Shown here: one piece after another, positions 3,958-26,600 of the stretch
Layout: each line of letters starts with the position of its first letter
Position numbering within the stretch: the stretch's first letter is position 1
Source of the DNA: a virus
Lineage: Duplodnaviria > Heunggongvirae > Uroviricota > Caudoviricetes
Direction: 5' to 3' (one strand)
Length of the DNA: 41,586 bases
Virus record (IMG/VR): IMGVR_UViG_2778261450_000006
Span: 1-41,586 of that record
Notes under the pieces: generated by a model
Told to the model about the DNA's origin: nothing
The model's database searches: none
Seen by the model: the letters and a program-made list of their open reading frames with translations, nothing else
Translations under genes and position numbers: made by a program

Positions 3958-3995
3958 TTTCTTTACCTTCAGGATTATATTAGCTATTCTGATAC

Positions 3996-5435: not shown

Positions 5436-5528
5436 ACCATTTTCACTATAACAAAAACATTAACTTGCGTTTAAAATCATCAAGTTAGTATTATCTTATG
5501 TTTGTCCGTTTTACTCATTTTTAATGCT

Positions 5529-5548
5529 CTGTCGCCAATCTGTCGCCA
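5529..5548 (+). repeat. Two direct copies of CTGTCGCCA 11 bp apart (candidate integrase arm-type sites)
   Basis: ctgtcgcca at 5529-5537 and 5540-5548; the same 9-10-mer recurs as an inverted pair at 40430-40468 near the other prophage end. Confidence 0.4.
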
Positions 5549-5550
5549 CA

Positions 5551-6201
5551 TTATCCGCTGCTTGAGTTGAAATCTGTGGGTTTACGGAGATTAGATCTTA
5601 TGGTTTTTTCAGCGATACGAATAGTCGAAAATTTATGCAGGTTCATCAGTGCTATACAAATCCCAAGTGCAAAAAAGTAGCTGGACATTCCTAATCTTTG
5701 CATATCAGTAAGTTTATTAATTTTCTCTAAAATATGTTGGGTTACTAATCCTTCGTATACAAAAGGTATGGAAGTTATAAAACCGCCAATAAAATAGAAT
5801 GTTAAGCTTATCAGCTTTATAGATTTTCTATATATCCAAAAGCGATATCTTTTTTTTGTCCATTTAAATATTTGTTTTTCACTACTAATAGAAATTAGTT
5901 TTTGACACTTGCTATAGTTATCAATGTCATTAACTGGATCGTTAACACCTAAAAGAATCTCTCTCTGTTCTGGAGTTAGGTTCTTATCTTTTGTTATTGC
6001 AGCAATACCATAATTATATGCAACTTTCTTGATTTTGGGATCTTCAGTATTCTTATATAGATTGTATGCAAACTCGCTAATGTTTTTGCGCGAGTTGAAA
6101 ATCTTATCTTTGGGGAAAACCCAGCCGGATCTTACCGCGAGCATCTGTATGATCGGGGTAATTATCGCGACAGAATACTTAATTATCTCGTTTATGTTCA
6201 T
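5551..6201 (-). CDS. AT-rich cargo protein with C-terminal transmembrane segments (hypothetical; moron between attR and int)
   Basis: 216-aa ORF, lysine-rich and AT-rich, hydrophobic segments LISLTFYFIGGFITSIPFVY and MSSYFFALGICIALM. Not part of the canonical P2/186 gene set at this position. Confidence 0.5.
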   Translation of the reverse strand: MNINEIIKYSVAIITPIIQMLAVRSGWVFPKDKIFNSRKNISEFAYNLYKNTEDPKIKKVAYNYGIAAITKDKNLTPEQREILLGVNDPVNDIDNYSKCQKLISISSEKQIFKWTKKRYRFWIYRKSIKLISLTFYFIGGFITSIPFVYEGLVTQHILEKINKLTDMQRLGMSSYFFALGICIALMNLHKFSTIRIAEKTIRSNLRKPTDFNSSSG

Positions 6202-6215
6202 GATCCATTGTTTAC

Positions 6216-7232
6216 TTAAATTAAGTTATAAAGAGGGTTTTTTGTTACTGCATCCTCCAGGTGGTCTGGAGAGAAGTGTGCATAAATCATCGTCATTTTA
6301 ATATCTGAGTGCCCTAAAATATCACGTAAAACGAGTATGTTCCCACCGTTCATCATAAAATGGCTGGCAAATGTATGGCGCAGGACGTGGGTGCATTGGC
6401 CTTCCGGTAGTTCAATACCGGCCCGTTTTACCGCCCGTTCAAAGGCTTTTCTGCATGGTGTGAATAATTTCCCTCGGTTTTTGGGTAGCTCGTTGTACAG
6501 ATCCTGAGATATCGGTACGGTACGGTTTTTTTTACCCTTGGTCTTTGTATAGGTAATCCGGTATTTCGATAGTTGATGGCCCTGCAGGTTTTCAGCTTCA
6601 CTCCAACGAGCACCGGTTGCTAGGCATATTTTTGCAATCATTAGCAGACTGGGGCTTTGAGAATCAGCACAGGCATCCAGCAGACGTTTAATTTCCTCCG
6701 GGGTTAGGAACGCCAGTTCACCCTCCGTAATTTTAAATGTTGGAAGCCCGGCAAGCGGGTTGGGGGCTGACCAGTGGCCCAGCTTTTTCAGTGTACCAAA
6801 AACAGATGATAGGTTGCGCTGTTCAAGGTTTACCGTGCGGGGCTTAACGGGTGACATGAACGAGCCGTCTTCATTTTGGACCTCCCCCTTTAATCTGGCT
6901 TCCCGATATTTTGTGAAATCACCTGCTGTCAGCTCAGAGGCGATGGGATCGCCTAGACCATTACAGATAATTCTAAGTTTCGCCATCAGGCGTTTGGGGT
7001 CTGCGAGTGTTTGACCATATAGGGAATACCACTGCTCAATCACTTCTGATAATCGCCGCCGATCTTCCTTCTCACCAAGCCATGGCTTTTTGTTTACTTC
7101 GTTCATGGTGAAGTTTTCGAATGCTATGGCTTCGCCTTTCGTGGCAAATTGCTTACGCACGCGCTTGCCATTGCGTCCATTGGGATAGCACTCACACAAC
7201 CATTTTCCGTTCGGCTGTTTTCTGATGGTCAT
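6216..7232 (-). CDS. int: P2/186-family tyrosine integrase
   Basis: 338 aa; GRNGKRVRKQF...AFE N-terminus and C-terminal LATGARWSEA ... HVLRHTFASHFMMNGG ... LGHSDIKMTMIYAHF catalytic region, as in P2 Int. Confidence 0.9.
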   Translation of the reverse strand: MTIRKQPNGKWLCECYPNGRNGKRVRKQFATKGEAIAFENFTMNEVNKKPWLGEKEDRRRLSEVIEQWYSLYGQTLADPKRLMAKLRIICNGLGDPIASELTAGDFTKYREARLKGEVQNEDGSFMSPVKPRTVNLEQRNLSSVFGTLKKLGHWSAPNPLAGLPTFKITEGELAFLTPEEIKRLLDACADSQSPSLLMIAKICLATGARWSEAENLQGHQLSKYRITYTKTKGKKNRTVPISQDLYNELPKNRGKLFTPCRKAFERAVKRAGIELPEGQCTHVLRHTFASHFMMNGGNILVLRDILGHSDIKMTMIYAHFSPDHLEDAVTKNPLYNLI

Positions 7233-7233
7233 A

Positions 7234-7866
7234 TCAAAGGCTCTTAATGATTTTCAGTGCACGGCCTACTACCTCAATGTCATCCAGGCCACACTCAAAC
7301 GATGAATCATCCTGATGCACTACTAATCTGTTTCCCGGGAGTCGAGTCAATTTAACAATGCTTTTTATCCCGTCGATATCGACTAACCACATACCATTCA
7401 CTGGTGGTGTTTGGTTGCGATCTATTAAATAAGAATCACCAGAAGTAGTCACCAGCAGTAGGTTGCTTGAGTCTGAGGGGAGTATGCTGCTATCAATGAT
7501 TGCTTTTCCAGCATCGACCAATAAACCACCGTTGAGAGTCGCCTTGTCAATTTCAGGAGATACTAGTTCAGAAAGAGGTACAACCTTGCTGGAGTTCACG
7601 GAATTGATATTTTTTTTAGGTTCAATGTTTGGACCTGGCTCCCCCTGTCCGGTGGTTAGCCACAGTAAAGAAACTCCTGTTTCCAAGGCGCACTGAATCA
7701 CCCACTCTGCAGGAAAACTATCTCTTAAGTATCTGTTTGCCATGGTGCTTTTTGATGCGCCTAAGTGATCGCAAAGTTGCTGTCTGGACTTGAAATCATA
7801 GGCTGCCATTAGTCTATGGATAGCTTCTCTTCCCCCTGTATTCTCTCCAGCCTTTACCTGTATCAT
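7234..7866 (-). CDS. cI: CI-type immunity repressor (186 CI-like)
   Basis: 210 aa directly upstream of int on the same strand, divergent from apl/cII; N-terminal motif QCALETGVSLLWLTTGQG resembles 186 CI. Confidence 0.8.
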   Translation of the reverse strand: MIQVKAGENTGGREAIHRLMAAYDFKSRQQLCDHLGASKSTMANRYLRDSFPAEWVIQCALETGVSLLWLTTGQGEPGPNIEPKKNINSVNSSKVVPLSELVSPEIDKATLNGGLLVDAGKAIIDSSILPSDSSNLLLVTTSGDSYLIDRNQTPPVNGMWLVDIDGIKSIVKLTRLPGNRLVVHQDDSSFECGLDDIEVVGRALKIIKSL

Positions 7867-7877
7867 TTTTTAATCCT

Positions 7878-7930
7878 GTTGACGTATCAAATATTGGATC
7901 GTAGTATCTCGATGTATCAAATATTGAATC
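7878..7930. promoter_or_regulatory. Immunity switch region: candidate rightward promoter (TTGACG 7878-7883, TAGTAT 7902-7907) with two 17-bp direct-repeat operator-like elements
   Basis: gtatcaaatattggatc (7884-7900) and gtatcaaatattgaatc (7914-7930) lie between divergent cI and apl. Confidence 0.4.
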
Positions 7931-7985
7931 AATTAAAACGAGATAAAACGACGTAAACCAAACCTTAATCGGGAGATACTGCACT

Positions 7986-8228
7986 ATGAGCACTGATATT
8001 TCAATTCGTGTACCAAAAGAGATGGCTACGCCTGCAGAGTTCGCGGAATGGGAAGGTATCTCCCGCGGCTCCGTGTATCAAAAAATTCACCATGGTCAGC
8101 TTGCTAAATACATGGTCAAGAAAGAAAAAAATAAAGGCCGCGTAAACCTTCGTTATCTGATGTACAAAACTGATCAGGTCCGTGAATCCCTCGGTCATTC
8201 CAACTTCCGCGTCATTGTTGGTAAGTAA
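7986..8228 (+). CDS. apl: Apl/Cox-like excisionase and transcriptional regulator
   Basis: 80-aa ORF first in the rightward early operon, divergent from cI, followed by cII-like gene; position and size match 186 apl. Confidence 0.7.
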   Translation: MSTDISIRVPKEMATPAEFAEWEGISRGSVYQKIHHGQLAKYMVKKEKNKGRVNLRYLMYKTDQVRESLGHSNFRVIVGK

Positions 8229-8260
8229 GTTCAATTATGGGAACTTTCTAAGGGGGCACC

Positions 8261-8770
8261 ATGTTTGATTACAAGATTTCCAAACATCCGCATTTCGATG
8301 AAGCCTGTAGGGCTTTTGCACTGCGTCACAACCTGGTGCAACTGGCAGAACGTGCAGGCATGAATGTACAGATTCTGCGGAACAAGCTGAACCCAGCTCA
8401 GCCTCATTTATTAACCGCACCAGAAATCTGGCTGCTTACCGATCTGACTGAAGATTCAACGCTGGTAGATGGTTTTCTGGCACAGATTCATTGTCTGCCA
8501 TGTGTACCGATTAATGAGGTGGCAAAAGAGAAACTGCCACATTACGTCATGAGTGCAACCGCAGAGATCGGGCGTGTTGCTGCAGGTGCGGTATCTGGCG
8601 ATGTAAAAACCTGTGCCGGTCGTCGTGATGCTATCAGCAGCATTAACTCTGTAACACGACTGATGGCGCTGGCGGCTGTTTCATTGCAGGCCCGTTTACA
8701 GGCTAATCCTGCGATGGCGAGTGCAGTTGATACCGTGACTGGCCTCGGTGCTTCATTCGGTTTGCTGTGA
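8261..8770 (+). CDS. cII: CII-like lysogeny-establishment activator (186 CII family)
   Basis: [24 protein letters not shown]...[33 protein letters not shown] closely resembles 186 CII as recalled. Confidence 0.8.
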
Positions 8771-8777
8771 GGTGCTT

Positions 8778-9074
8778 ATGCTGACGAAAGAACCATCATT
8801 TGCATCGCTGCTGGTAAAACAAAGCCCGGCAATGCACTACGGTCACGGCTGGATCATGGGTGAGGATGGTAAACGCTGGCACCCGTGCCGTTCACAAGAT
8901 GAATTGCTGTCTGAATTGACCACGGGGAAACGGAGAAAGTCAAAATGTATGCAGCGGAAAGTGAAGTGGTTTATCAGTTTCGTTACAGAGGGGAGAGTTA
9001 TTCAGTACCTGAAGATGATTTGCTCTGTTGTTATCCGTCGTTGTCGGGCGATGGCAGTTACTTTTTCACGCTAA
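8778..9074 (+). CDS. Hypothetical early protein (extent uncertain; 3' part overlaps next ORF)
   Basis: ATG at 8778 just after cII stop; reading frame stays open to 9074 but overlaps the better-supported ORF starting at 8945. Confidence 0.3.
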   Translation: MLTKEPSFASLLVKQSPAMHYGHGWIMGEDGKRWHPCRSQDELLSELTTGKRRKSKCMQRKVKWFISFVTEGRVIQYLKMICSVVIRRCRAMAVTFSR

Positions 9075-9169
9075 AGGATGGGACGTTTTTACGAGGAGAG
9101 CAGGTTAAAGAAACGATACGAAAAAATGTATCTCCTCTCGAACGTTACCGTAAGAACAAAGAACAATAG
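8945..9169 (+). CDS. Hypothetical early protein
   Basis: 74-aa ORF with GGAGAAAG RBS upstream of ATG. Confidence 0.45.
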   Translation: MYAAESEVVYQFRYRGESYSVPEDDLLCCYPSLSGDGSYFFTLKDGTFLRGEQVKETIRKNVSPLERYRKNKEQ

Positions 9170-9191
9170 TTGCGTTTTGGGGATATGAATT

Positions 9192-9533
9192 ATGGCAATT
9201 AATGGCGCTGCAGCGACTGTTCCATTAAGCCCCGGTGAACGCCTGAATGGACTTAATCATATTGCGGAGTTAAGGGCGAAAGTATTTGGCCTTAATATTG
9301 AGTCAGAGCTTGAGCGGTTTATTAAAGATATGCGTGATCCACGGGATATCAATAATGAACAAAATAAACGGGCACTGGCTGCCATATTCTTTATGGCAAA
9401 AATTCCAGCTGAACGTCATAGCATCAGCATTAATGAGCTGACCACTGACGAAAAGCGGGAGTTGATTAAAGCAATGAATCATTTTCGTGCAGTGGTGAGC
9501 TTATTTCCCAGACGGCTAACCATGCCGAATTAA
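9192..9533 (+). CDS. Hypothetical phage early protein
   Basis: 113-aa ORF in early operon with plausible RBS. Confidence 0.5.
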   Translation: MAINGAAATVPLSPGERLNGLNHIAELRAKVFGLNIESELERFIKDMRDPRDINNEQNKRALAAIFFMAKIPAERHSISINELTTDEKRELIKAMNHFRAVVSLFPRRLTMPN

Positions 9534-9600
9534 CCAACTAATGAAATTAATGGCGTAAACCCGCCGGGCATCCCTTTATCTAAATTCAGGAGAATTGATT

Positions 9601-9834
9601 ATGCGTAATATTGAAACCCTCTCGACTAAAACCGGACCGGATGACGCAGGGCTTAATATTTTACTGACAGAGGCTCGTCTGGAAGAACGCCGGGCAAGGG
9701 CTGAAGCAATGGCAGCTCGCCTTGATAGCCTGGCGTGTCATATCACATCCCGCCAGCTAAACCACGTCGAAGCGGCAGAACTGCTGCGTGTAACTGCTGA
9801 AGCAATCCAGAACGAAGCGCAGGAGATCCACTAA
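9601..9834 (+). CDS. Hypothetical phage early protein
   Basis: ATG at 9601 preceded by AGGAG (track ORF starts at TTG 9595); stop overlaps next start (TAATG). Confidence 0.5.
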   Translation: MRNIETLSTKTGPDDAGLNILLTEARLEERRARAEAMAARLDSLACHITSRQLNHVEAAELLRVTAEAIQNEAQEIH

Positions 9835-10061
9835 TGGCTGATGCAATGGATCTCGTACAGCAGCGCGTTGAAGAAGAACGCCAGCGCCATATTCGTGCTG
9901 CCCGTGCCAAAACACCGGGCGTGTCTCGCGTGCTTTGTATTGAATGTGAAGCGCCAATTCCGCCAGCACGACGCCGCGCCATTCCGGGAGTGCAGCTTTG
10001 CATTACCTGCCAGGAAATCGTAGAGCTGAAAGGCAAACATTACAACGGAGGTGCTGTATGA
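9834..10061 (+). CDS. TraR/DksA-family C4 zinc-finger protein
   Basis: 75 aa with CIECEAPIP...CITCQ four-cysteine motif typical of phage TraR/DksA-like proteins. Confidence 0.7.
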
Positions 10062-10360
10062 CAAGGGCAGTGCGTATCCATCAATTAAAAATTGCACCTA
10101 AGTATTTCAACGCTGTGGTTGCAGGTCAAAAGACGGCTGAACTTCGTAAAGACGATCGTGGCTATAAAGTTGGTGATGTTCTTTCTCTTTGCGAATGGAA
10201 GCATGGCGTATTTACGGGTAGGGAATGGGCCGCTGTTATCTCTCATGTGCTTCCGGTTAATGACGTCATGGCAGTTTCAGAACAATGGGTGATGCTATCA
10301 ATTCGCCCATTAACTCCATTAGAAGCTTTGGGATATGTTATTGCAGGAGGTGCTGTATGA
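10058..10360 (+). CDS. Hypothetical protein, possibly ASCH-like/DUF3850 fold
   Basis: 100-aa ORF starting at ATG 10058 with GGAGG RBS; start and stop junctions overlap neighbours (ATGA). Confidence 0.5.
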
Positions 10361-11214
10361 GCACCATCCTGAAATGGGCAGGTAATAAAACTGCCATTAT
10401 GTCCGAACTGAAAAAACATCTTCCTGCTGGCCCGCGACTGGTTGAACCTTTCGCGGGTTCCTGTGCTGTGATGATGGAGACGGATTACCCCAGCTATCTT
10501 GTTGCGGATATTAATCCTGATTTAATCAACCTCTATAAAAAGGTTGCTGCTGATTGTGAATCGTTTATATCTCGCGCCAGAGTTTTATTTGAGATCGCAA
10601 ACAGGGAGGTGGCTTATTACAACATAAGGCAGGAGTTTAATTACTCAACTGAAATTACTGATTTCATGAAAGCGGTATATTTCCTGTATCTAAATCGTCA
10701 CGGTTACCGTGGTTTATGTCGCTATAACAAGAGCGGGCATTTCAACATTCCCTACGGTAATTATAAAAATCCGTATTTCCCTGAAAAAGAAATTCGCGCA
10801 TTTGCAGAAAAAGCCCAGCGAGCAACGTTTATCTGCGCCAGCTTTGATGAAACGCTGGCGATGTTGAAAGCGGGGGATGTGGTGTATTGCGATCCGCCGT
10901 ATGACGGTACGTTTTCCGGCTATCACACTGACGGCTTCACTGAAGATGACCAGTATCACCTGGCATCTGTTCTTGAACATCGGTCATCAGAAGGACATCC
11001 GGTCATTGTTTCTAACAGTGACACATCCCTGATCCGTTCGCTGTATCGCAATTTTACTCACCACTACATCAAGGCAAAACGCAGCATCGGTGTGGCAGCT
11101 GGCGAGGGTAAATCAGCAACAGAAATCATTGCTGTTTCCGGGCCGCGCTGCTGGGTGGGATTTGATTATTCGCGTGGCGTGGATAGTTCTGCCGTGTACG
11201 GAGTACGTGCATGA
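10357..11214 (+). CDS. dam: Orphan DNA adenine methyltransferase (Dam family)
   Basis: Start [18 protein letters not shown] (AdoMet-binding) and DPPY catalytic motif; no adjacent restriction endonuclease gene. Confidence 0.85.
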
Positions 11215-13625
11215 GTCATGCCGATATGAACAACTGCTGCGGCTTTAACGAAGCTGCCGCATCGTTCTCATGGAACAGCCCGAAAAAGGCCATTAACCCT
11301 TATCTGGACCCGGCGGAAGTTGCGCCGGTTTCTACGCTTTCAAACCTGATCACTCTGTACGCTGCCGATAACGAGCAGGAACAGCTGCGCCGTGAGGCGC
11401 TGAGTGATCAGGTCTGGGAGCGTTATTTCTTTAATGAATCCCGTGATCCTGTCCAGCGCGAAATGGAGCAGGATAAGCTCATTAGTCGGGCAAAGCTGGC
11501 GCATGAGCAGCAGCGTTTTAACCCGGACATGGTCATTCTGGCAGACGTCAGCGCCCAGCCCTCCCATATCAGCAAGCCGCTGATGCAACGTATTGAATAC
11601 TTCAGCAGCCTTGGCAGGCCAAAGGCTTATTCCCGCTATTTGCGTGAGACGATTAAGCCATGTCTGGAACGGCTGGAGCATGTACGCGACAGTCAGCTAT
11701 CCACATCTTTTCGCTTTATGGCAAGCCATGAAGGGCTGGACGGCCTGCTGATTCTGCCTGAAATGAGTCAGGATCAGGTGAAACGCCTGTCCACCCTTGT
11801 TGCTGCGCATATGAGCATGTGCCTTGATGCAGCTTGTGGCGATTTGTATGTCACCGATGACGTTAAGCCAGAAGAAATCCGCAAGACATGGGAAAAGGTG
11901 GCAGCAGAAACCCTGCGACTGGATGTCATACCGCCTGCGTTTGAGCAACTCCGCCGGAAAAGAAACCGCCGTAAACCCGTGCCATATGAACTCATTCCGG
12001 GTTCGCTGGCGCGTATGTTGTGCGCCGATTGGTGGTACCGGAAATTATGGAAGATGCGTTGCGAATGGCGGGAAGAGCAGTTGCGTGCTGTTTGCCTGGT
12101 CAGCAAAAAAGCATCTCCCTATGTCAGCTATGAAGCCGTGATGCATAAACGTGAGCAGCGCCGTAAGTCGCTGGAGTTTTTCCGTTCTCATGAACTGGTG
12201 AACGAAGACGGCGACACGCTGGACATGGAGGATGTGGTAAACGCCAGCAGCAGCAACCCTGCGCATCGCCGCAATGAGATGATGGCCTGTGTTAAAGGTC
12301 TGGAGCTTATCGCGGAAATGCGCGGTGACTGCGCCGTTTTCTACACCATCACCTGTCCGTCACGTTTCCATTCCACGCTAAATAACGGCAGGCCCAACCC
12401 GACCTGGACAAATACGACGGTAAGACAAAGCAGTGATTATCTGGTCGGCATGTTTGCTGCATTTCGTAAGGCGATGCACAAAGCCGGATTGCGCTGGTAT
12501 GGCGTGCGGGTGGCTGAGCCGCATCATGACGGTACAGTTCACTGGCACCTGTTGTGTTTTATGCGCAAAAAAGATCGCCGCACCATTACTGCTTTGTTGC
12601 GTAAGTTTGCCATTCGTGAAGACCGCGAGGAGCTGGGTAATAACACGGGACCACGCTTTAAGTCTGAGCTGATAAACCCGCGCAAAGGTACGCCAACAAG
12701 CTACATCGCGAAATACATCAGTAAGAACATTGACGGGCGTGGTCTGGCTGGCGAGATCAGCAAGGAAACGGGTAAATCCCTGCGTGATAACGCTGAATAC
12801 GTTAATGCCTGGGCGTCTCTGCATCGTGTTCAGCAATTCCGCTTCTTTGGCATTCCGGGGCGTCAGGCTTACCGTGAACTGCGATTGCTGGCTGGTCAGG
12901 CGGCAAGGCAACAGGGGGACAAAAAAGCAGGTGCGCCGGTACTGGATAACCCGCGCCTTGATGCAATCCTGGCTGCTGCTGATGCTGGTTGTTTTGCCAC
13001 CTACATCATGAAGCAGGGCGGCGTACTGGTTCCCCGCAAATATCACCTCATCAGAACTGCTTATGAAATCAACGAAGAACCGACCGCATATGGCGATCAC
13101 GGTATTCGTATTTATGGCATCTGGTCACCCATTGCAGAGGGCAAGATCTGCACTCATGCGGTGAAGTGGAAAATGGTTCGTAAGGCTGTTGACGTTCAGG
13201 AGGCGGCAGCCGACCAGGGCGCTTGCGCCCCTTGGACTCGTGGCAATAACTGTCCCCTTGCTGAAAATTTGAACCAACAAGGGAAAGACAAATCAGCTGA
13301 TGGGGATACCAGAACGGAAATCACCCGCATGGATGACAAGGAATTGCACGATTACCTGCACAGTATGAGCAAAAAAGAGCGCCGGGAACTGGCAGCAAGG
13401 TTACGCCTGGTTAAACCGAAACGGCGTAAAGACTACAAACAGCGAATTACAGATCATCAGCGACAGCAGCTCGTCTATGAACTGAAGTCCAGAGGATTTG
13501 ATGGCAGCGAGAAAGAGGTCGATTTACTCCTTCGCGGCGGCAGTATTCCGTCAGGAGCAGGCCTGCGTATCTTCTATCGGAACCAGCGTCTGCAGGAGGA
13601 TGATAAATGGCGGAACCTGTATTAA
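11211..13625 (+). CDS. A: Replication initiation protein A (rolling-circle nickase, P2 gpA family)
   Basis: 804 aa; HUH-like VHWHLL motif and YIAKYISK tyrosine motif; position between early genes and SOS operon. Confidence 0.9.
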
Positions 13626-13777: not shown

Positions 13778-13966
13778 ATGCAGGACTATTTTTTGGAGTC
13801 TTTGAAGCTCCAGCGCATTGATTTTTTTCTTAAGCTTGTAGCGGCTAGTGAGTGTAGTGATGAAGAGAAGGGGCTGGCCCTGCAGTGGGTTTCTGAACTG
13901 ACAGATGAACTCATGGCAAAAATCAGAACCCACGAATACAACCGCTCAATGGATGTCATCAGCTGA
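13778..13966 (+). CDS. Small SOS-controlled protein, candidate Tum-like antirepressor N-terminal module
   Basis: 62-aa ORF with AGGAGG RBS directly downstream of the LexA box; position corresponds to 186 tum. Confidence 0.45.
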   Translation: MQDYFLESLKLQRIDFFLKLVAASECSDEEKGLALQWVSELTDELMAKIRTHEYNRSMDVIS

Positions 13967-13976
13967 GGTGACTTTT

Positions 13977-14210
13977 ATGCGCATTGAAATAATGATCGAT
14001 AAAGAGCAGAAGATTAGCCAGTCTACCCTGGACGCTCTGGAGTCAGAGCTTTACCGCAACCTGCAACCCATCTATCCCAAGACAGCTATCCGCATCCGTA
14101 AAGGGTCGGCAAACGGCGTTGAGCTGAGTGGCTTAAAGCTTGATGAAGACAAAAAGCGGGTGATGGAAATTATGCAGCAGGTTTGGGAAGACGACAGCTG
14201 GCTGCACTAA
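13977..14210 (+). CDS. dinI: DinI-family protein
   Basis: MRIEIMIDKEQKISQSTLDALESEL...EDKKRVMEIMQQVWEDDSW resembles E. coli DinI; ATG 13977 with GAGGTG RBS (track ORF starts 13905). Confidence 0.75.
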   Translation: MRIEIMIDKEQKISQSTLDALESELYRNLQPIYPKTAIRIRKGSANGVELSGLKLDEDKKRVMEIMQQVWEDDSWLH

Positions 14211-14592: not shown

Positions 14593-15204
14593 ATGGATTT
14601 AGTCTTTAAAATTCTGGCTTCGTTGGGTGGGGTGTCTTTTGTTGCATCTGGCATATTTGTTTGGATCGGGAAAGTTTATTTAGAAAGATATAAGTCGCGG
14701 CTAAACAAAGATATTGCTGAATTTCAATCACAACTGAGTGCAACTAATGAAAGAATAAAGGCTAAGTTAGACAATTCTGTTTATGTAACGAAAGCGTATT
14801 TTGATAAGGAGTTATCAGCATATAGTCTCATTTGGAATTCGATGTTTGAAACCAGAGAAAGCGTGCTTAAGCTGAGGCCTGCGCTGGATCATTTTGACCC
14901 CAACGAACCATTTGAAGAGAGAAAATTTAGAAGGTTGAAAGTTTTTTTCGATGCATTTAATACTTTTGTTACAAGTGTTGAGTCTAACAAACCGTTCATC
15001 TCACCAGAGGTTTATATAATCTTGGACCGTTTCCGGAAGGAATGCCTTTCAGAGTCAATATCGTTTCAGCATGGCGATCCAGAATTTGACTGGCAAAATT
15101 ATTGGAAAGAGGCAGAGTTGAACCGTACAACCATCACCAAGCTTTTTGATGAGACGTGTGATGCAATTCGAGACAGGATGCACACATTAACTGTGGTTAC
15201 GTAG
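14593..15204 (+). CDS. Membrane-anchored protein of unknown function (single N-terminal TM helix; cargo)
   Basis: 203 aa, hydrophobic N-terminus ILASLGGVSFVASGIFVWIG followed by a soluble domain; AT-rich; followed by a terminator. Confidence 0.5.
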   Translation: MDLVFKILASLGGVSFVASGIFVWIGKVYLERYKSRLNKDIAEFQSQLSATNERIKAKLDNSVYVTKAYFDKELSAYSLIWNSMFETRESVLKLRPALDHFDPNEPFEERKFRRLKVFFDAFNTFVTSVESNKPFISPEVYIILDRFRKECLSESISFQHGDPEFDWQNYWKEAELNRTTITKLFDETCDAIRDRMHTLTVVT

Positions 15205-15295
15205 TTTTCCAAAAAGTCTCGATGCCCGCTTTGGCGATTGTGCATGTCTATGCCGCATGAATCCGCATGATCGTTTGAGGATCGTTTTAGCTGAG

Positions 15296-15319
15296 GCCCG
15301 CTAGGAATGGCGGGCTTTT
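15296..15319 (+). terminator. Rho-independent terminator
   Basis: gcccgc / gcgggc stem with 8-nt loop followed by TTTT. Confidence 0.5.
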
Positions 15320-15364
15320 GCTTATGTCATGCAGGCGCATGAAAACCACTACATAAAGCGGGCA

Positions 15365-15383
15365 GGCGTGGCGGGGATACGAG
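15365..15383. other. Candidate cos (cohesive-end) site of the P2/186-family phage
   Basis: ggcgtggcggggatacgag resembles the P2 19-nt cohesive end GGCGAGGCGGGGAAAGCAC as recalled from memory. Confidence 0.35.
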
Positions 15384-15535
15384 CGCGCGCTAAGTCATAT
15401 AAGAGTTATATATTGATTTGATTGCTGGACATGCATACAGTATCGCTCTATCATCTAATAAATCTTAGAGTATTTGGCAATGTTTGGATAAAATGGAACC
15501 TAACTTATTCATAATCCGCTAAACAGGGATGTCAG

Positions 15536-16450
15536 ATGCCATACCAATTGGTAGAGCTTAGCCCCGTAGCTAACGATCTTGAACAGTTAGGAACCAAAGA
15601 GAAGTTTTGGTTCTATTTCTCCGATGACACTGTAAATTTGCAGTTGTTTAAGTACTCTAGGCCAGGTACTGGCGAGCATTGGTCTGAAAAGTGTGCTGCT
15701 GAGTTATGTCATTTGCTTAACATTCCACATGCTAGCTATGATTTGGCGCGATACAATGGTCGATTCGGTGTGGTGACTCAGAATATCATTCCATCTGGTT
15801 TCCGGATGGTAATGGGAAATGAAGTGCTTCACAGTTCGACATTCGATTATCCTGGGCCTTTACAAGCCGGGGAAAAGCCGGTAAGGGTCAGAGAACACAC
15901 TGTCACAAGGGTATTGGGTTGTTTGGATAGGGAATCTATCAAGCCTCCTCCGAGTGTATATGATCTAACCGGGCTAAATGCAGCAGATGTATTTTGTGGA
16001 TATTTGATGCTCGATGCACTTGTGAGTAATCAAGATCGCCATCATGAAAATTGGGCGATCATGCTTAACAATGAAACTGGTGAGCAGTTTTTGTGTCCAA
16101 CATACGATCATGCCGCTAGTTTAGGAAGGGAGATGTTAGATGATGAGCGTAACGAACGGCTTAATACTAAAGATAAAAATCGACAAATCCCATGTTTTGT
16201 AAGAAAAGCTCGCTCTGAGCTATTCAAAGCAAAAACTGATAAAAAGCCCTTGCTGACCGTTGAAGCATTTCAACATGCAGTTGAAGGGAGAGTTGCCGCT
16301 CGCGACCATTGGTTAGGTAAGTTGAGCGTTTTAACAGAAGATTCCATTACAGATGTGTTTAACCAAGTGCCTTCATCGTGTATATCCGACAGTGCACGTA
16401 GATTTGCAACGTTAATGGTAATGGAAAATCGCAGAAGGTTACTAGAATGA
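15536..16450 (+). CDS. HipA-like serine/threonine kinase core (lacks HipA N-terminal subdomain)
   Basis: P-loop-like GTKEKF near N-terminus and catalytic motif LDALVSNQDRHHENWAIM matching the HipA D-x-H-x-x-N region; YDHAASLG follows. AT-rich leader. Confidence 0.7.
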   Translation: MPYQLVELSPVANDLEQLGTKEKFWFYFSDDTVNLQLFKYSRPGTGEHWSEKCAAELCHLLNIPHASYDLARYNGRFGVVTQNIIPSGFRMVMGNEVLHSSTFDYPGPLQAGEKPVRVREHTVTRVLGCLDRESIKPPPSVYDLTGLNAADVFCGYLMLDALVSNQDRHHENWAIMLNNETGEQFLCPTYDHAASLGREMLDDERNERLNTKDKNRQIPCFVRKARSELFKAKTDKKPLLTVEAFQHAVEGRVAARDHWLGKLSVLTEDSITDVFNQVPSSCISDSARRFATLMVMENRRRLLE

Positions 16451-17187
16451 CTAATACAAACTCCGTTTACGTCGCATGGCAGGCACCAGATACCAGAGAC
16501 TGGCATGTTGTTGGTAACTTGCAAGAGCGCAAATCGGGGTATGTTTTCAGGTATACCAAAGGTGCTCTTAAATCTACTAAATTTACAAAGTTTAGCGGCA
16601 TGAGTGATGTTCGTGAAACTTATGTTTCGGAAGAATTGTTTCCTCTTTTTAAAAATCGCCTTTTATCACCGAGACGTCCAGAGTATCCGAGTTTCATTAA
16701 ATGGCTTGGATTTGAAGAAGATAAGGTAAATCCTATCGATATTCTTGCTCGCTCGGGAGGCTTACGAAGCACTGATCAGCTGCAGATTTTCAAAAAAATT
16801 GATGTTGATTCTGATGGTAACTTTGAGCATTTTTTCTTCTTACATGGACTTGGTTACTTAAATAGCTTAGCTAATGCTCGTGTATCTGAATTGAAACCGG
16901 GGCAAATTTTGCGTCTTTGCTTGGATCTTCAAAATGAATACGATGGGGATGCTGTTGTCGTTCGTGCAGATAAACCAGCTGAAATCGTTGGTTACTGCCC
17001 TAGGTATTTAAGTAATGATATCAAGAAGATGTTATTGGATGATCCAAAATCAATCACTTTAACGGTCGAAAAGATTAGCGATGATGCTCCTCATAACTAT
17101 CGGTTATTATGTAAATTATCAGGAGTACTAAGCCAAGCCTGTCAATCGACGCTGATTCCTCAGGATGAGTTTGAACCTATTGAGTAA
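16447..17187 (+). CDS. HIRAN-domain protein with N-terminal HipA-N/HipS-like region
   Basis: C-terminal LKPGQILRLCLDLQNEYDGDAVVVRADKPAEIVGYCPRYL matches the HIRAN signature; start overlaps kinase stop (ATGA). Confidence 0.65.
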   Translation: MTNTNSVYVAWQAPDTRDWHVVGNLQERKSGYVFRYTKGALKSTKFTKFSGMSDVRETYVSEELFPLFKNRLLSPRRPEYPSFIKWLGFEEDKVNPIDILARSGGLRSTDQLQIFKKIDVDSDGNFEHFFFLHGLGYLNSLANARVSELKPGQILRLCLDLQNEYDGDAVVVRADKPAEIVGYCPRYLSNDIKKMLLDDPKSITLTVEKISDDAPHNYRLLCKLSGVLSQACQSTLIPQDEFEPIE

Positions 17188-17196
17188 ATGAAGAAA

Positions 17197-17220
17197 AGCC
17201 ACCAAACGGTGGCTTTTCTT
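17197..17220. terminator. Bidirectional rho-independent terminator between the HIRAN gene and convergent Q
   Basis: agccacc-aaac-ggtggct stem-loop flanked by A-run and T-run. Confidence 0.6.
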
Positions 17221-17221
17221 A

Positions 17222-18262
17222 TTATGGGACTATATCTAGCGAGTAGGTATTAAACTGTATCGCCTCCTTGCCAAGCCAATCATTCATCTCCTGTAATCGC
17301 TTTTGTAGTGGCATTAGCTCATTTCGGACGAATACACGGCTTGCCTTTTCCACATCCCCAAACCCCCCAACATTATTCGGCATAATCCCCATCATTTGCG
17401 GCGGCACGCGGTGCGCTGCCATCATGTCATCCCGACTCACGTTCTTGATGTTAAGAAATTCATCCTTCGCCGCGACTTCTGACAATGGGATGATCTGAAG
17501 CCCGTCTTTTTTGCCGTTAGGTGAGTACATAAACAGGTTGCGGAAGTTGCCTGGACCTTTGGCGCTTTTCATCGCGTTGCGGAGGTTGTTCACATCCTCC
17601 TGATTCTGCGCGGCATCGGTCATGTACATGATGAAGCCTGCATGGCTGCCGTTAATGTAATACTTACGGCGGAACAACGTGGCGGACTCGTTGAGCAGGG
17701 CTGACGGAATGGCAGAAAGATAACCGGGCAGGCCGTAGATCTCCTGGTTGATATCCGGTTCCATCAGATGAAAGATGCTGCCTTTCGTGAACTGATACGG
17801 CTGCGTAGTCATGCCGTATTGCACAAACCAGTAGGTATCCAGGTCTAACCCGCGTCGGGTGTATTTTGCCAGAGCAGGCTCAAGGGCGATAACTTCACCG
17901 AAGCGGTTCGTGCGTTTCTCCAGGTAGGCGTTACCAAATACCAGATAGTCCTGCACAAAACGTGAAAAAGCCTGCTGGCTGAGCAGCGGGTGGGGGATGT
18001 AGGTACTGGTCAGAATGTTGCATTTCACCGCAATTGGTGAACTGTGATGCACGGCGGCGCGGAAGGTGCGCGCCAGTCCGTCAAAGCTTACTGGCGGCTC
18101 ATACCAGCGATCTGTCTGTACGCATTCCACATAGTCCAGTAGTTCGCGGCGGTCCAGAACAGGAACGGGATCACCGAAGCTGAATGCTTCGGCTGTAGTT
18201 TGACTTTTATGCTGGATCTGGTTCGTCGACGCAGCGCGGTTCTTCTTACTCTTTCCCATCAA
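17222..18262 (-). CDS. Q: Portal protein (P2 gpQ family)
   Basis: 346 aa, size and position (leftward, paired with P, divergent from O) match P2 Q. Confidence 0.9.
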   Translation of the reverse strand: MMGKSKKNRAASTNQIQHKSQTTAEAFSFGDPVPVLDRRELLDYVECVQTDRWYEPPVSFDGLARTFRAAVHHSSPIAVKCNILTSTYIPHPLLSQQAFSRFVQDYLVFGNAYLEKRTNRFGEVIALEPALAKYTRRGLDLDTYWFVQYGMTTQPYQFTKGSIFHLMEPDINQEIYGLPGYLSAIPSALLNESATLFRRKYYINGSHAGFIMYMTDAAQNQEDVNNLRNAMKSAKGPGNFRNLFMYSPNGKKDGLQIIPLSEVAAKDEFLNIKNVSRDDMMAAHRVPPQMMGIMPNNVGGFGDVEKASRVFVRNELMPLQKRLQEMNDWLGKEAIQFNTYSLDIVP

Positions 18263-20025
18263 AAAATCTCCACAATATTACTGGTATTGGCGGACTCGCC
18301 CTGCAGTGGTTCGTTAAACAGTGCGTGCATTGTTGCCCAGGCCAGATCGGCGTGGCTGGCTTCTTCGCTGCGGCTGGCTTCATAGGTTGGGCGGTTGCCA
18401 CTGGCGGTGGTTGCGCGACGGATTGCCATGAATGACTGCGCAATGTCGGTGTGCCCGGCGTCAAACTCCAGACGGCGGTGGCTGATAATGTCGTAGGCCT
18501 TGAGTACCAGGGCGTTTTTAACGTTGGGGTTGTAGACAAACTCCCGGACGGCAGGAAAGAACGCTTTCACGTTCTCGTAAACCCCGTGACCAACGCCGGT
18601 TGAGTCGATACCGATATAAGTCACGTTGTACTGTTCGGTAAGTTTTTTGATGGCGTCAGCCTGGGCGCGGAAGTCCATCCCGCGCCACTGGTGACGCTCA
18701 AGAATGCGGAACTTACCACCCGGCACGGCTGGCGGTGCCACCACCACGCATCCAGCGCTGTCGCCGTTTTGCGTACCTTTTGCCGGGTCATAACCGATCC
18801 ACACTTCGCGCCAGCCAAACGGGCGCAGCGCCAGTGCATGAAAGTCGGTCCAGACTTCCCAACTGTCCACCATGCACGCCTGCAGCTCGCTGAGCGGAAA
18901 CACGGACGCGAGATCGTCCACAAACTCGCACATCAGCAGGTTCTGGTATTCGTCTGGGCTGTACTCCATGCGTAGCTGGTCGAGGTCGAACAGGTTACAG
19001 CCGCCGCGCACCGCATCTTCCACGGTGACTATCTGGCGGTATTGCCCGTCTGCGCACAGCAGGCCGGGGGCCAGATTGCTGTGGGACAGGTCGATGTCCA
19101 CCTTATCGGCTTTGTTGCGCCCACGGTTGAACAGCGCACCGGACCAGAACGGATAAGCACTGTGTGTCAGACTGGATGGCGTGGAAAAATAGGTTTGTCG
19201 CCATTTTTTGTGAATAGCCATACCGGAAGCCACTTTGCGCAGCTCCTGGAATTTCGGTATCCAGAAATATTCATCCAGATACAGGTTGCCGTGGTAACTC
19301 TGGGCCGTGCGGGCATTGGTGCCGAGGAAGTAAAGCGTGGCCCCGTTAGGAAGCACCATCGGATCGCCTTTCAGCTCCACCTCCACTTCTTTGGCAAAGT
19401 CGATGATGTACTGTTTAAAGACGTGGGCCTGAGCCTTGCTGGCAGAAAGGAAAATCTGGTTACGCCCGGTCAGCAGGGCGTCAATCAGGGCTTCACGGGC
19501 AAATTAAAAGGTCGCGCCGATCTGGCGTGACTTCAGCAGGTTGCGGATGCGGTTGGTTTTTCCGGCTTCCCACCAGTGGCGCTGGTAGTTGAACATAGAG
19601 GAATGGAAGATTTCTTCCAGTTTCTCAATCTGTTCATCGGTGAAAACATTCTTTTCCGGCTGACGACGTGGGCCTTTGTTGCGGTTGGCAACGTTAGGGT
19701 TTAAGTCGGCTTCGTTGCCGCCATTGTTAAACTTGCCGATCCGCGCGTGGCGCTCAGACTGGCGTGCCAGCAGGTCAATTTCTTTGAAATCTTTCCCTTC
19801 TTTGTGCTCCTTCATAATGAGCTGGCAGTAGCGTGCGGCGGTGGTGAGCTGCATCTGATCCAGCGGCCCATAGTCACCCCACTTGTCGCGTTTTTTCCAG
19901 CTGTGAACGGTTGCAACTTTCTCGCCCAGCATTTCAGCAATGCGGGCGACGCGGTATCCCTGAAAGTACAGCAGCATGGCCTGCCGACGGGGATCGAGAT
20001 CTGCGGGTGTCAGTGTGGTGTTCAT
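18259..20025 (-). pseudogene. P: Terminase ATPase (large) subunit gpP interrupted by an in-frame TAA
   Basis: ORFs 19504-20025 and 18259-19386 are in the same frame; a single TAA at 19504-19506 (minus strand) is the only stop, and the 39 codons between it and the next Met (FAREALIDALLTGRNQIFLSASKAQAHVFKQYIIDFAKEV) continue the protein. Combined length 588 codons. Confidence 0.8.
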
Positions 20026-25613: not shown

Positions 25614-26600
25614 TTACTCTTTGTAAATTCGATCTGGCTCGTTGTACTCTATTTCTCTCAGTCGACCATTTTTAATGGTGAAATTACCTTTTTCTGATTT
25701 AAATTCCCCACCACATTTACAAGGCTTGTTATCAGAAAGAGTGTAGTTTTTTAGTATTAGTTCATCATCGTTGTCAAAGGTGGGGATTATTTTTTTAGTT
25801 TCAGCGCATTGCGTGCACTTAACTTGCAATTCCGGGAGTGTGGTACAAGCTGTAAGGCTCAGTTCGACATTCTCTGGAACAATGTAATATCCTAGCAATG
25901 GTGTCCCACGACTTTCTGAAACACCTTTGTATGTATTGGTTATGCCTCCAATAAATGCAAGGATTTCATCATACGCTTGAGTATTACGCATTGTTACCCA
26001 GCAATCTCGATCTTCATAACTATACTCACGACCTGCAACGCAAATTGCTGTAACGTAACGAAAGTCTTCTTTGTATATTTTTTTATACCTTTCGGCTTCA
26101 GTAATTCCATTTGGTGATAAGTCACTACTTAGAGCAAATATTACCGAGCGAAGTTTCTCTATTTTGTGTTGGATTAGTTTGCCTGATTCATCTTTTATTC
26201 CAGGTAAGTAACCGAATTTCTCATTAAGTTCTTTTGCACTTGAGTGTGCAGAGCTGAGTTCCGATGAACTTAATGTGGTTTTTACCTCAATGGTATATAG
26301 AACTGATTCTATTGGGAATAACCCTGTGGCACCATCGATTAATATCGGAGGGAGTATTGATTTATTGTAAATAATAATATCTATTTGAGGTGATAACTTT
26401 CCTGAATACTGTTCAATGATTTGCCCTGTGCCAATGCCAACATCTGCGGGCAAAAGAGGTCGAAATAGTTGACTTAATAATATTTCTAGAACAGCTCCCT
26501 TAACACCCTGGTGGGAAAATCCTGCAGCACTTTTGGCTTGAGCAATCGCCGATTCGACCTTCCCTCTAAGTAAAGCCTGATACTGGTTCTTATTTTTCAT
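25614..26600 (-). CDS. Cargo protein: PD-(D/E)xK-like nuclease fold with C-terminal zinc-ribbon (candidate anti-phage defence gene)
   Basis: 328-aa antisense ORF between S and V, strongly AT-rich against a GC-rich late operon. Motifs PQIDIIIYN ... ESVLYTIEVKT (D ... E-x-K) and C-terminal CTQCAETKK ... CKCGG cysteine cluster. Confidence 0.6.
   Translation of the reverse strand: MKNKNQYQALLRGKVESAIAQAKSAAGFSHQGVKGAVLEILLSQLFRPLLPADVGIGTGQIIEQYSGKLSPQIDIIIYNKSILPPILIDGATGLFPIESVLYTIEVKTTLSSSELSSAHSSAKELNEKFGYLPGIKDESGKLIQHKIEKLRSVIFALSSDLSPNGITEAERYKKIYKEDFRYVTAICVAGREYSYEDRDCWVTMRNTQAYDEILAFIGGITNTYKGVSESRGTPLLGYYIVPENVELSLTACTTLPELQVKCTQCAETKKIIPTFDNDDELILKNYTLSDNKPCKCGGEFKSEKGNFTIKNGRLREIEYNEPDRIYKE

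What the first reader, a model, noticed from the sequence alone, without database searches (positions are those of the whole stretch)
15365..17220. HipA-like kinase core plus HIRAN-domain protein inserted between candidate cos and the portal gene
Gene 1 has the HipA P-loop-like GTKEKF and catalytic LDALVSNQDRHHEN motif but lacks the HipA N-terminal subdomain. Gene 2 carries a C-terminal HIRAN signature (NEYDGDAVVV ... IVGYCPRYL), a fold that binds DNA 3' ends, and its N-terminus may supply the missing HipA-N/HipS-like part. The pair is translationally coupled, AT-rich, has its own upstream region and a bidirectional terminator, and sits in a variable cargo position of a P2-family prophage. A kinase coupled to a DNA-end sensor fits a toxin/abortive-infection or anti-phage module; I cannot assign it to a described system from memory.
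Basis: partly seen in the sequence, partly recalled or inferred. Interest (0 to 1): 0.8.

Follow-up and report, generated by a model that had tools for sequence, protein, structure and literature searches.

The report
HipI kinase with HipN (HipS-HIRAN) partner
This is a real two-gene cargo module in a P2-like prophage, a short HipA-type protein kinase plus a partner that joins a kinase-inhibitor-like domain to a DNA-end-binding domain; the type is already published as "hipIN" and as defence candidate PDC-M03, but nobody has tested what it does.

Summary
There are two overlapping genes, 15536-16450 and 16447-17187, both on the + strand. They are AT-rich, lie between a cos-like site and the portal gene, and end at a strong bidirectional terminator.

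Gene 1 is a 304-aa HipA-superfamily kinase core. Its Gly-rich loop, catalytic Asp and Mg-binding Asp are intact, and it lacks HipA N-subdomain 1. [quoted passage not shown]

It is the hipIN module of Gerdes et al. 2021 (mBio) and PADLOC candidate PDC-M03 (E 2e-122 and 3e-93). These exact proteins, WP_001146828 and WP_000185757, are listed in Rousset et al. 2022 Table S5A among P2 hotspot cargo.

The kinase-partner pairing held in 79 of 80 species-level loci. The module is rare cargo, present in 21 of 5,426 complete E. coli genomes, and it also rides on other mobile elements.

The most likely function is a kinase toxin held in check by HipN and released when HIRAN senses DNA ends, giving abortive infection. 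I found no experimental test of this.

Novelty: already known as a prediction. Interest: modest.

The parts
15240..15398 (+). Conserved cos-region block of this P2-like lineage. It marks the left boundary of the cargo slot.
   Evidence: This roughly 150-bp stretch is the only part of 15205-17221 shared with 1,251 E. coli genomes and with P2-like phages such as Fels-2, SopEPhi and Klebsiella or Yersinia P2-like phages.
15365..15383 (+). cos-like 19-mer GGCGTGGCGGGGATACGAG (context, not part of the module).
   Evidence: It occurs once in the window. The identical 19-mer occurs once upstream of the portal gene in L001, L007, L008, L089, L090 and L091. It matches P2 cos at 14 of 19 positions (P2 cos seen).
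15426..15454 (+). Candidate sigma-70 promoter for the pair (TGGACA-17-TATCAT).
   Evidence: It matches the consensus at 10 of 12 positions and lies 82 nt upstream of the gene A start codon. The scan is not enriched over shuffles, so this is only suggestive.
15536..16450 (+). hipI: a 304-aa short HipA-superfamily Ser/Thr kinase, the putative toxin or effector. Key residues are the Gly-rich loop G19-T20-K21-E22-K23-F24, K39, catalytic D167 with H169 and N172, and Mg-binding D191.
16447..17187 (+). hipN: a 246-aa two-domain partner, the putative antitoxin and sensor. It is translationally coupled to hipI through an ATGA overlap, with AGAAGG 9 nt upstream of its start codon.
   Evidence: PADLOC PDC-M03B matches at E 3.4e-93. 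The AlphaFold model has pLDDT 88.9. The overlap was read directly from the sequence.
16459..16800 (+). HipS-like N-terminal domain of HipN (about residues 5-118).
16825..17130 (+). HIRAN domain of HipN (residues 127-228). The putative 3'-end pocket is N163, Y165, D166 and R186.
17191..17220 (.). Bidirectional intrinsic terminator between hipN (+) and the portal gene (-).
   Evidence: A 13-bp stem folds at -21.6 kcal/mol with z -5.6, flanked by an A-run and a T-run.

Best explanation
The locus is a hipIN-type module carried as accessory cargo in the cos-to-portal slot of a P2-like prophage.

Shown here:
- HipI is an intact short HipA-superfamily kinase that lacks HipA N-subdomain 1.
- HipN is a HipS-like domain fused to a HIRAN domain that keeps the residues which, in human HLTF, hold a DNA 3'-OH end.
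- The two genes are translationally coupled and almost never occur apart.
- The module moves between unrelated mobile elements.
- In sister prophages the same slot holds other defence-like cargo.

Inferred, by analogy with HipBST and HipBA and as Gerdes et al. 2021 proposed:
- When a superinfecting phage produces free DNA 3' ends (incoming linear genomes, replication or recombination intermediates, or a degraded host chromosome), the HIRAN domain engages them and inhibition is relieved.
- HipI then phosphorylates an essential host protein, most likely an aminoacyl-tRNA synthetase. This is by analogy with HipA acting on GltX and HipT acting on TrpS.
- Translation stops, and the infection aborts before progeny are made. 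This protects the lysogenic population and therefore the prophage.
- The invariant Thr20 in the Gly-rich loop may allow autophosphorylation control, as in HipA and HipT.
For: Family assignment. PADLOC PDC-M03A and PDC-M03B match at E 2e-122 and 3e-93. The architecture is identical to the hipIN of Gerdes 2021.

Obligate pairing. In 79 of 80 species-level loci, down to 36% identity and spanning Gammaproteobacteria, Cyanobacteria, Deltaproteobacteria, Acidobacteria and Planctomycetes, the HipN gene directly follows the kinase. The one exception is cut off by a contig end. No third gene is conserved nearby.

Mobility and cargo status.
- The pair is in 21 of 5,426 E. coli genomes, against 1,251 that carry the cos block.
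- It occupies the same slot in a Klebsiella P2-like prophage.
- A 71%-identical variant sits in an AlpA/DUF3987/primase island.
- A 37%-identical pair lies next to the integrase of PM2-like Vibrio phages.
- Homologues of the kinase occur on Nostoc and actinobacterial plasmids.

Slot neighbours. In sister prophages the cos-to-portal slot holds an AIPR (Abi-like) protein, an AAA ATPase plus S8 peptidase, or other cargo.

Literature. The P2 gpA-gpQ interval is a validated defence hotspot, and the exact proteins are listed in its Table S5A. The PDC systems were picked because they are embedded in BREX, DISARM or type I RM loci. Other HipA-family kinases have been validated as defence systems, for example HipAD.
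Against: - I found no experiment on hipIN or PDC-M03: no toxicity, neutralisation, DNA-binding or phage-challenge data. PDC systems are explicitly described as untested.
- A distant fused relative from the P2 hotspot, pFR108 'Exonuclease + HipA' (a kinase plus a HipS-like segment), is listed among tested systems that showed no activity on an eight-phage panel.
- The HipS similarity rests on a predicted structure plus a sub-threshold Pfam hit. Sequence searches against the PDB did not recover HipS.
- The complex was not modelled, so binding of the HipS-like domain to the kinase is an inference.
- Fused HipL forms show that the 'antitoxin' can be covalently tethered to the kinase. This fits regulation in cis better than classical antitoxin turnover.
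- Neighbourhoods outside Enterobacteria are mostly ordinary genes, with only sporadic defence genes.
- The kinase target is unknown.
Confidence: 0.6

Rival explanations
1. HipN is not an antitoxin. It is a completing and targeting subunit. The HipS-like domain supplies the missing N-subdomain 1 in trans, as in full-length HipA where that subdomain is part of the active enzyme. The HIRAN domain recruits the assembled kinase to DNA 3' ends, where it phosphorylates DNA-bound proteins such as phage replication, recombination or packaging factors. On this reading the system interferes directly rather than by cell suicide.
Against: In the only characterised split system, HipBST, HipS inhibits HipT (established knowledge, cited). 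Nothing here points to a DNA-bound substrate.
Confidence: 0.15
2. The pair is a plain addiction (post-segregational killing) toxin-antitoxin module. It stabilises the prophage or island and has no role against other phages. On this reading the HIRAN domain serves autoregulation or is incidental.
For: Hip modules are classical type II TA systems. The pair rides on integrative elements and plasmids. A distant relative showed no defence activity.
Against: HIRAN is a DNA-end binder, not an operator-binding HTH domain. The slot and hotspot are dominated by defence cargo. The system was picked up independently because it is embedded in BREX, DISARM or RM-I loci.
Confidence: 0.15
3. The module serves the prophage's own life cycle. 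It might sense host DNA damage or the phage's own cos ends to modulate induction, packaging or superinfection by P2-like relatives. Its position right next to cos would then be functional rather than accidental.
For: It lies immediately next to cos, and HIRAN binds DNA ends.
Against: The same pair occurs in non-P2 contexts that have no cos site, including a PM2-like phage, an AlpA island, plasmids and cyanobacterial chromosomes. Only about 1.7% of E. coli genomes that carry this cos block have the pair. Other, unrelated cargo occupies the same slot.
Confidence: 0.05
4. The kinase is a CtkA-like secreted or translocated virulence kinase that acts on eukaryotic host cells.
Against: The family is widespread in free-living cyanobacteria, deltaproteobacteria and marine gammaproteobacteria. 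It is always coupled to a HIRAN partner. No secretion-related domain was detected by Pfam; signal peptides were not specifically tested.
Confidence: 0.02

Closest known systems
hipIN modules (HipI kinase + HipN), Gerdes, Baerentsen & Brodersen, mBio 2021 (PMC8262856)
   Same: A short kinase (279-321 aa) lacks N-subdomain 1, so the Gly-rich loop lies near the N-terminus. [quoted passage not shown] A Thr sits next to the Gly-rich loop. The taxonomic spread across Proteobacteria and Cyanobacteria matches their fourth HipI subclade. The proposed function is the same: HIRAN senses phage DNA ends and the kinase triggers abortive infection.
   Different: There is no difference in architecture. Their tree held only 14 hipIN modules, and this accession was not found in the supplement text that is held, so I did not test phylogenetic placement. 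They did not note the context in a P2 prophage cos-portal slot.
PADLOC phage defence candidate PDC-M03 (Payne et al. 2024, bioRxiv 10.1101/2024.01.29.577857)
   Same: Both proteins match the PDC-M03A and PDC-M03B models over their full length (E 2e-122 and 3e-93). Another paper describes PDC-M03 as a HipA protein plus a HIRAN-domain protein.
   Different: PDC systems are untested candidates chosen by 'guilt by embedding' in BREX, DISARM or type I RM loci. This copy is in a prophage hotspot, not embedded in such a locus.
P2 gpA-gpQ defence hotspot cargo and the 'HIRAN-kinase' of Rousset et al. 2022 (PMC9122126)
   Same: The exact proteins WP_001146828 and WP_000185757 are listed in Table S5A of P2-encoded loci. 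A Vibrio prophage hotspot system is annotated 'HIRAN-kinase: HipA_C + Couple_hipA/HIRAN' in Table S6.
   Different: Neither was tested for defence. The related system that was tested, pFR108 (Exonuclease + fused HipA-like kinase), is only distantly similar (27 bits to the HipI profile) and showed no activity on their panel.
HipBST tripartite toxin-antitoxin system (E. coli O127, Legionella)
   Different: This locus has no HipB-like HTH gene. The HipS-like part follows the kinase gene instead of preceding it, and it is fused to HIRAN. Sequence identity is only 10-21%.
HipL kinases (kinase-HipS-HIRAN in one polypeptide)
   Same: The same three domains occur in the same order.
   Different: Here they are split into two translationally coupled genes.
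CtkA (JHP0940) of Helicobacter pylori, PDB 3akj
   Different: Identity is 17%. CtkA is described as a cell-translocating proinflammatory kinase. I did not examine whether it has a HIRAN partner.
HLTF/Rad5 HIRAN domains
   Different: The bacterial domain is fused to a HipS-like domain rather than to a SWI/SNF helicase and RING. The equivalents of HLTF R71/Y72 and F142 could not be assigned from sequence.

Membership tests
hipIN (Gerdes et al. 2021) | Short Hip kinase (about 279-321 aa) lacking HipA N-subdomain 1, with the Gly-rich loop near the N-terminus | tested here: met
   The protein is 304 aa and the Gly-rich loop GTKEKF lies at residues 19-24. The model aligns with the HipT and HipA kinase cores only.
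hipIN (Gerdes et al. 2021) | Conserved Hip core motifs: Gly-rich loop, catalytic motif and Mg-binding motif (plus the activation loop) | tested here: met
   G19-F24, D167/H169/N172 (DRHHEN) and D191 (YDHAAS) are invariant in 33 homologues. D167 and D191 align with CtkA D155 and D179. The activation loop was not examined separately.
hipIN (Gerdes et al. 2021) | [quoted passage not shown] | tested here: met
hipIN (Gerdes et al. 2021) | Phylogenetic placement in the HipI subclades of main clade XI | not tested
   No reference HipI sequences were available, and the accession is not in the held supplement text. The spread of homologues across Proteobacteria and Cyanobacteria is consistent with placement there.
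hipIN (Gerdes et al. 2021) | HipI is toxic and HipN neutralises it (toxin-antitoxin behaviour) | not testable with these tools
   This needs expression experiments. It is not shown in the literature I could search either.
PADLOC PDC-M03 | Both PDC-M03A and PDC-M03B models matched by adjacent genes | tested here: met
   PDLC04344 matches at E 2.1e-122 over residues 2-304. PDLC04347 matches at E 3.4e-93 over residues 1-244. The genes overlap by 4 nt.
Anti-phage defence system (validated) | Reduces phage plating or burst when expressed in a sensitive host | not testable with these tools
   No published test was found.
Canonical HipBA | Full-length HipA (about 440 aa, with N-subdomain 1) plus an upstream HipB HTH antitoxin | tested here: not met
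   The kinase is 304 aa. No HTH gene is adjacent; upstream lies the cos region and downstream is HipN. NCBIfam HipA and YjjJ models match only at E 0.12.
HipBST | Three genes: hipB (HTH), hipS (about 100 aa) and hipT | tested here: not met
   Only two genes are present. The HipS-like part is fused to HIRAN and encoded after the kinase.
HIRAN domain (PF08797) | Pfam gathering threshold, the HIRAN fold, and a conserved 3'-end pocket (HLTF Y93/D94) | tested here: met
P2-like prophage hotspot cargo (Rousset et al. 2022) | Located between gpA and gpQ next to cos, and variable among related prophages | tested here: met
   gpA lies at 11211-13625, cos at 15365 and the portal at 17222-18262. The pair is in 21 genomes against 1,251 with the cos block. 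Alternative cargo fills the same slot. The exact accessions are in Table S5A.

The most novel reading that the evidence does not exclude
HipN acts as a direct nucleic-acid pattern receptor. Its HIRAN pocket captures the free 3'-OH ends of invading or replicating phage DNA. That capture allosterically pulls the HipS-like pseudo-subdomain off HipI and switches on a protein kinase. This would make it a DNA-end-gated immune kinase in bacteria, conceptually like eukaryotic DNA-damage kinases. The kinase might have a substrate outside the known aminoacyl-tRNA synthetase targets of Hip kinases. The idea was published as a hypothesis in 2021, and I found no test of it.
Probability: 0.3. Interest if true: 0.65.

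Novelty: already known. Interest (0 to 1): 0.3.

Why it matters
If the proposed mechanism is right, hipIN would be a defence system in which sensing of a phage DNA end is wired directly to a protein kinase. That would add a sensor type (HIRAN) and an effector logic (a split Hip kinase) to bacterial immunity, and it would give the bacterial HIRAN domain a function.

This copy is a convenient test case. It is an E. coli-type sequence with its own promoter-like region and terminator in a 1.85-kb cassette. It sits in a prophage hotspot where neighbouring cargo has repeatedly proved to be defensive.

As a discovery it adds little. The architecture, the candidate-defence label and these exact proteins are already in the literature and in databases.

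Tried and rejected
- Sequence-only searches of the PDB with the HipN profile or with its N-terminal 121 residues did not find HipS. They returned only chance hits: gamma-crystallin and designed Kelch 'SAKe' repeats whose E-values were inflated by the repeats. The HipS relationship therefore rests on the fold search.
- NCBIfam gave nothing useful for either protein.
- The simple terminator scan missed the real terminator, because the stem extension absorbs the T-run.
- A megablast search of the phage collection found only the cos block and not the pair. A protein-level search was needed to find the Vibrio PM2-like phages.
- The neighbour survey of 144 ORFs around 31 diverse loci (L008-L038) found no conserved third component and only sporadic defence genes, so no extra partner is proposed. 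The first attempt exceeded the residue limit.
- 'HIRAN' hits in Millman 2022 and in a 2026 review were the author name 'Hirano'.
- Whole-word searches for 'HipN' and 'HipI' returned clinical acronyms.
- I considered the reading that the pair is P2 backbone and rejected it.
- I considered a CtkA-like virulence role and rejected it because of the taxonomic spread and the obligate HIRAN partner.
- A model of the HipI-HipN complex could not be made.
Full report
**1. What is in the sequence**

The interval holds two same-strand ORFs. Gene A is 15536-16450 (304 aa) and gene B is 16447-17187 (246 aa). Their stop and start codons overlap as ATGA, and an AGAAGG Shine-Dalgarno-like element lies 9 nt before the gene B start.

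The pair is 41.3% GC, against 53.4% for the downstream phage late region (profile).

Upstream lies a single cos-like 19-mer, GGCGTGGCGGGGATACGAG, at 15365-15383. It matches the P2 cos at 14 of 19 positions; the P2 sequence is visible in cloned sequences in Rousset et al. Table S2. The 19-mer sits inside a roughly 150-bp block (about 15240-15398). That block is the only part of the region shared with 1,251 E. coli genomes and with P2-like phages.

One promoter-like site, TGGACA-17-TATCAT, lies at 15426-15454. The scan is not enriched over shuffles, so I treat it as suggestive only.

Downstream, a 13-bp GC-rich hairpin at 17191-17220 is flanked by an A-run and a T-run. It folds at -21.6 kcal/mol (z -5.6) and separates gene B from the convergent portal gene.

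The flanks are a P2-type replication protein gpA (11211-13625) and a portal protein (17222-18262, - strand).

**2. What the proteins are**

*Gene A.* By sequence it reaches only a sub-threshold Pfam HipA_C match (20.7 bits against a cut-off of 30.5) and nothing useful in NCBIfam. An AlphaFold2 model built on 33 homologues (pLDDT 83.8) matches several HipA-type kinases:

A profile alignment to CtkA puts D167 on CtkA D155 and D191 on CtkA D179. From memory, these are the catalytic and Mg-binding aspartates of CtkA.

Several residues are invariant across homologues down to 57% identity: the Gly-rich loop G19-T20-K21-E22-K23-F24, K39, D167, H169, N172 and D191. The Gly-rich loop begins at residue 19, so there is no HipA N-subdomain 1.

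I recalled the HLTF HIRAN sequence from memory and verified it as identical to PDB chains. hhalign then places N163, Y165, D166 and R186 on HLTF N91, Y93, D94 and K113. N163, D166 and R186 are invariant in the family. By established knowledge of HLTF, D94 contacts the 3'-OH and Y93 stacks on the terminal base. The DNA-end pocket therefore appears to be preserved. The equivalents of HLTF R71/Y72 and F142 could not be assigned.

**3. Is the pair a unit, and is it cargo?**

A scan of one genome per species returned 80 loci with a HipI relative, at 89% down to 36% identity. They come from Gammaproteobacteria, Cyanobacteria, Deltaproteobacteria, Acidobacteria, Planctomycetes and others. In 79 of them a HipN-like gene covering both domains directly follows on the same strand. 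The only exception is truncated by a contig end. Four loci carry frameshifted kinases.

A survey of 144 neighbouring ORFs from 31 of these loci found no conserved third gene. The neighbourhoods are heterogeneous. They include a few known or candidate defence genes, transposases and two further P2-like prophages, and are otherwise ordinary genes.

The HipN profile finds 1,002 clusters at 50% identity with E <= 1e-10 among 1.84 billion representatives. Almost all are about 245 aa.

In complete E. coli genomes the pair is present at 98.5% identity or more in 21 of 5,426 genomes, against 1,251 that have the neighbouring cos block. It is therefore not phage backbone.

The same module also occurs in other mobile contexts:
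- in the same slot of a Klebsiella P2-like prophage, at 90% identity;
- as a 71%-identical variant in an E. coli AlpA/DUF3987/primase island;
- next to the integrase of PM2-like temperate Vibrio phages, at 37% identity and again with a 4-nt overlap;
- for the kinase, on Nostoc and actinobacterial plasmids.

*The slot.* In sister prophages that carry the identical cos 19-mer, the cos-to-portal interval holds other cargo: an AIPR (Abi-like) protein, an AAA ATPase plus S8 peptidase, or three hypothetical genes. Only 92 of 1,293 genomes have the cos block and the portal 3' end within about 835 bp of each other. Some cos-block hits may lie in P4-like satellites, which share the cos signal, so I use this count only qualitatively. 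The cos-portal interval is thus a commonly occupied cargo slot within the gpA-gpQ hotspot.

**4. What is already known**

- Gerdes, Baerentsen and Brodersen (mBio 2021, PMC8262856) defined exactly this architecture as hipIN. HipI is a short kinase. [quoted passage not shown] HipL is the fused form. They proposed that HIRAN senses phage DNA ends and activates the kinase to cause abortive infection, and said this 'can now be tested experimentally'.
- PADLOC carries the pair as PDC-M03, and both proteins match full-length at E 2e-122 and 3e-93. PDCs are 145 untested candidates selected because they are embedded in BREX, DISARM or type I RM loci.
- Rousset et al. 2022 (PMC9122126) showed that the P2 gpA-gpQ interval is a defence hotspot with 1,650 gene arrangements.
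  - Their Table S5A lists WP_001146828 + WP_000185757, which are identical to the window's proteins.
  - Their Table S6 lists a Vibrio prophage 'HIRAN-kinase' annotated HipA_C + Couple_hipA/HIRAN.
  - Their Table S2B (tested, not validated) includes pFR108, 'Exonuclease + HipA'. Its kinase is a distant fused HipL-like relative.
- A 2025 NAR paper notes HipA-HIRAN pairs next to diDNase genes in Actinobacteria.
- Other HipA-family kinases have been validated as defence systems, for example HipAD, but with a different partner.
- I found no experimental work on hipIN or PDC-M03 in the searchable library.

**5. Mechanism**

Shown here:
- an intact kinase core;
- translational coupling and near-obligate co-occurrence;
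- a mobile, accessory location among defence-like cargo.

Inferred:
- HipN's HipS-like domain holds HipI inactive, by analogy with HipS and HipT.
- HIRAN engagement of free 3' DNA ends during infection relieves that inhibition.
- HipI phosphorylates an essential translation factor, by analogy with HipA acting on GltX and HipT acting on TrpS.
- Translation arrest then aborts the infection.
- The invariant Thr20 may be an autophosphorylation switch.

I put 0.6 on the overall reading that this is a Hip kinase and sensor module acting in inter-phage conflict or defence. Membership of the hipIN kind is much more certain than that. The individual mechanistic steps are much less certain.

The main rivals are these:
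- HipN is an activating and targeting subunit rather than an antitoxin. The fused HipL forms and the role of N-subdomain 1 in HipA make this reasonable.
- The pair is a plain addiction module.
- The pair has a phage-intrinsic role tied to cos. Its occurrence in elements that have no cos argues against this.
- The kinase is a CtkA-like virulence kinase. The taxonomic spread and the obligate HIRAN partner argue against this.

**6. Verdict**

The system is already described, however, as a family (hipIN), as a defence candidate (PDC-M03) and as P2-hotspot cargo under these very accessions.

It is therefore 'already known' as a kind, with an untested function. I score interest at 0.3. A specialist would not be surprised, but the cassette is a clean and tractable candidate for the first experimental test of a DNA-end-sensing Hip kinase.

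Noticed in passing
window 19504-19506 (- strand), within the terminase large-subunit gene 18259-20025: The gpP-like terminase ATPase gene is interrupted by an in-frame TAA where a near-identical prophage (L001) has TAC (Tyr): ...RQIGATF*FAREAL against ...RQIGATFYFAREAL. The prophage may be packaging-defective, or this is a sequencing error.
   Followed up: partly
window 25614-26600 (- strand): A reverse-oriented 328-aa gene sits inside the tail and lysis gene block. It matches DUF6602 (E 1e-21) and the PADLOC PD-(D/E)xK and NucC-like nuclease models (E 7e-32 and 8e-14). It is probably cargo in a second hotspot of the prophage.
   Followed up: partly
window 14593-15204 (+): An AT-rich (38.6% GC) 203-aa ORF with an N-terminal hydrophobic helix lies on the gpA-to-cos side of the hotspot. 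It matches phrog_26391 (unknown function, E 6e-144) and has no credible Pfam or PADLOC match. It may be another accessory or defence gene.
   Followed up: partly
window 1-5267: Outside the P2-like prophage there is a pair of genes with HATPase_c + HEF_HK (1-1719) and Response_reg_2 (1703-3469) domains, next to a second tyrosine integrase (3996-5267, - strand). This suggests a separate integrative island abutting the prophage integrase (6216-7232, - strand). GC over 1-13625 is only 42.9%.
   Followed up: partly
window 10285-11214 (+): A Dam-like D12-class N6-adenine methyltransferase lies directly upstream of gpA. It matches PADLOC orphan-MTase models (E 3e-111). The same arrangement is seen in the Klebsiella relative L007.
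   Followed up: no
window 13905-14210 (+): A DinI-like protein (Pfam E 4e-24) follows gpA. In this ORF call it appears N-terminally extended to 101 aa, whereas relatives are annotated at 77 aa.
   Followed up: no
L001 2800-5699 (E. coli GmM062): A sister prophage carrying the identical hipIN pair also has a SIR2-family protein plus an ATP-binding protein on the gpA-to-cos side. The two sub-slots on either side of cos can therefore be filled independently.
   Followed up: no
L002-L006 8001-9663: A 71%-identical hipIN variant (10-nt overlap) in E. coli sits between a two-partner-secretion/haemagglutinin operon and an AlpA/DUF3987/primase integrative element. This is a different mobile context from the window.
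   Followed up: partly
L088 6935-8649 (Vibrio phage 10N.222.46.E12_PE001): A PM2-like (Vinavirales) temperate Vibrio phage of 14.6 kb carries a HipA-like + HIRAN pair with a 4-nt overlap next to its integrase. The module is therefore shared between tailed and non-tailed phage lineages.
   Followed up: partly
L026, L027, L052, L064 (kinase genes): In four of the 80 related loci the HipI homologue is split into two frames, by frameshift or assembly error, while HipN is intact. This could reflect decay of a toxic kinase, or sequencing errors in metagenome-assembled genomes.
   Followed up: no
L089 2622-4388; L091 1129-4396; L090 2147-4341: The cos-to-portal slot of other E. coli P2-like prophages holds an AIPR-family protein, an AAA ATPase + S8 peptidase pair, or three hypothetical genes. 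These are further candidate defence cargo at the same site.
   Followed up: no
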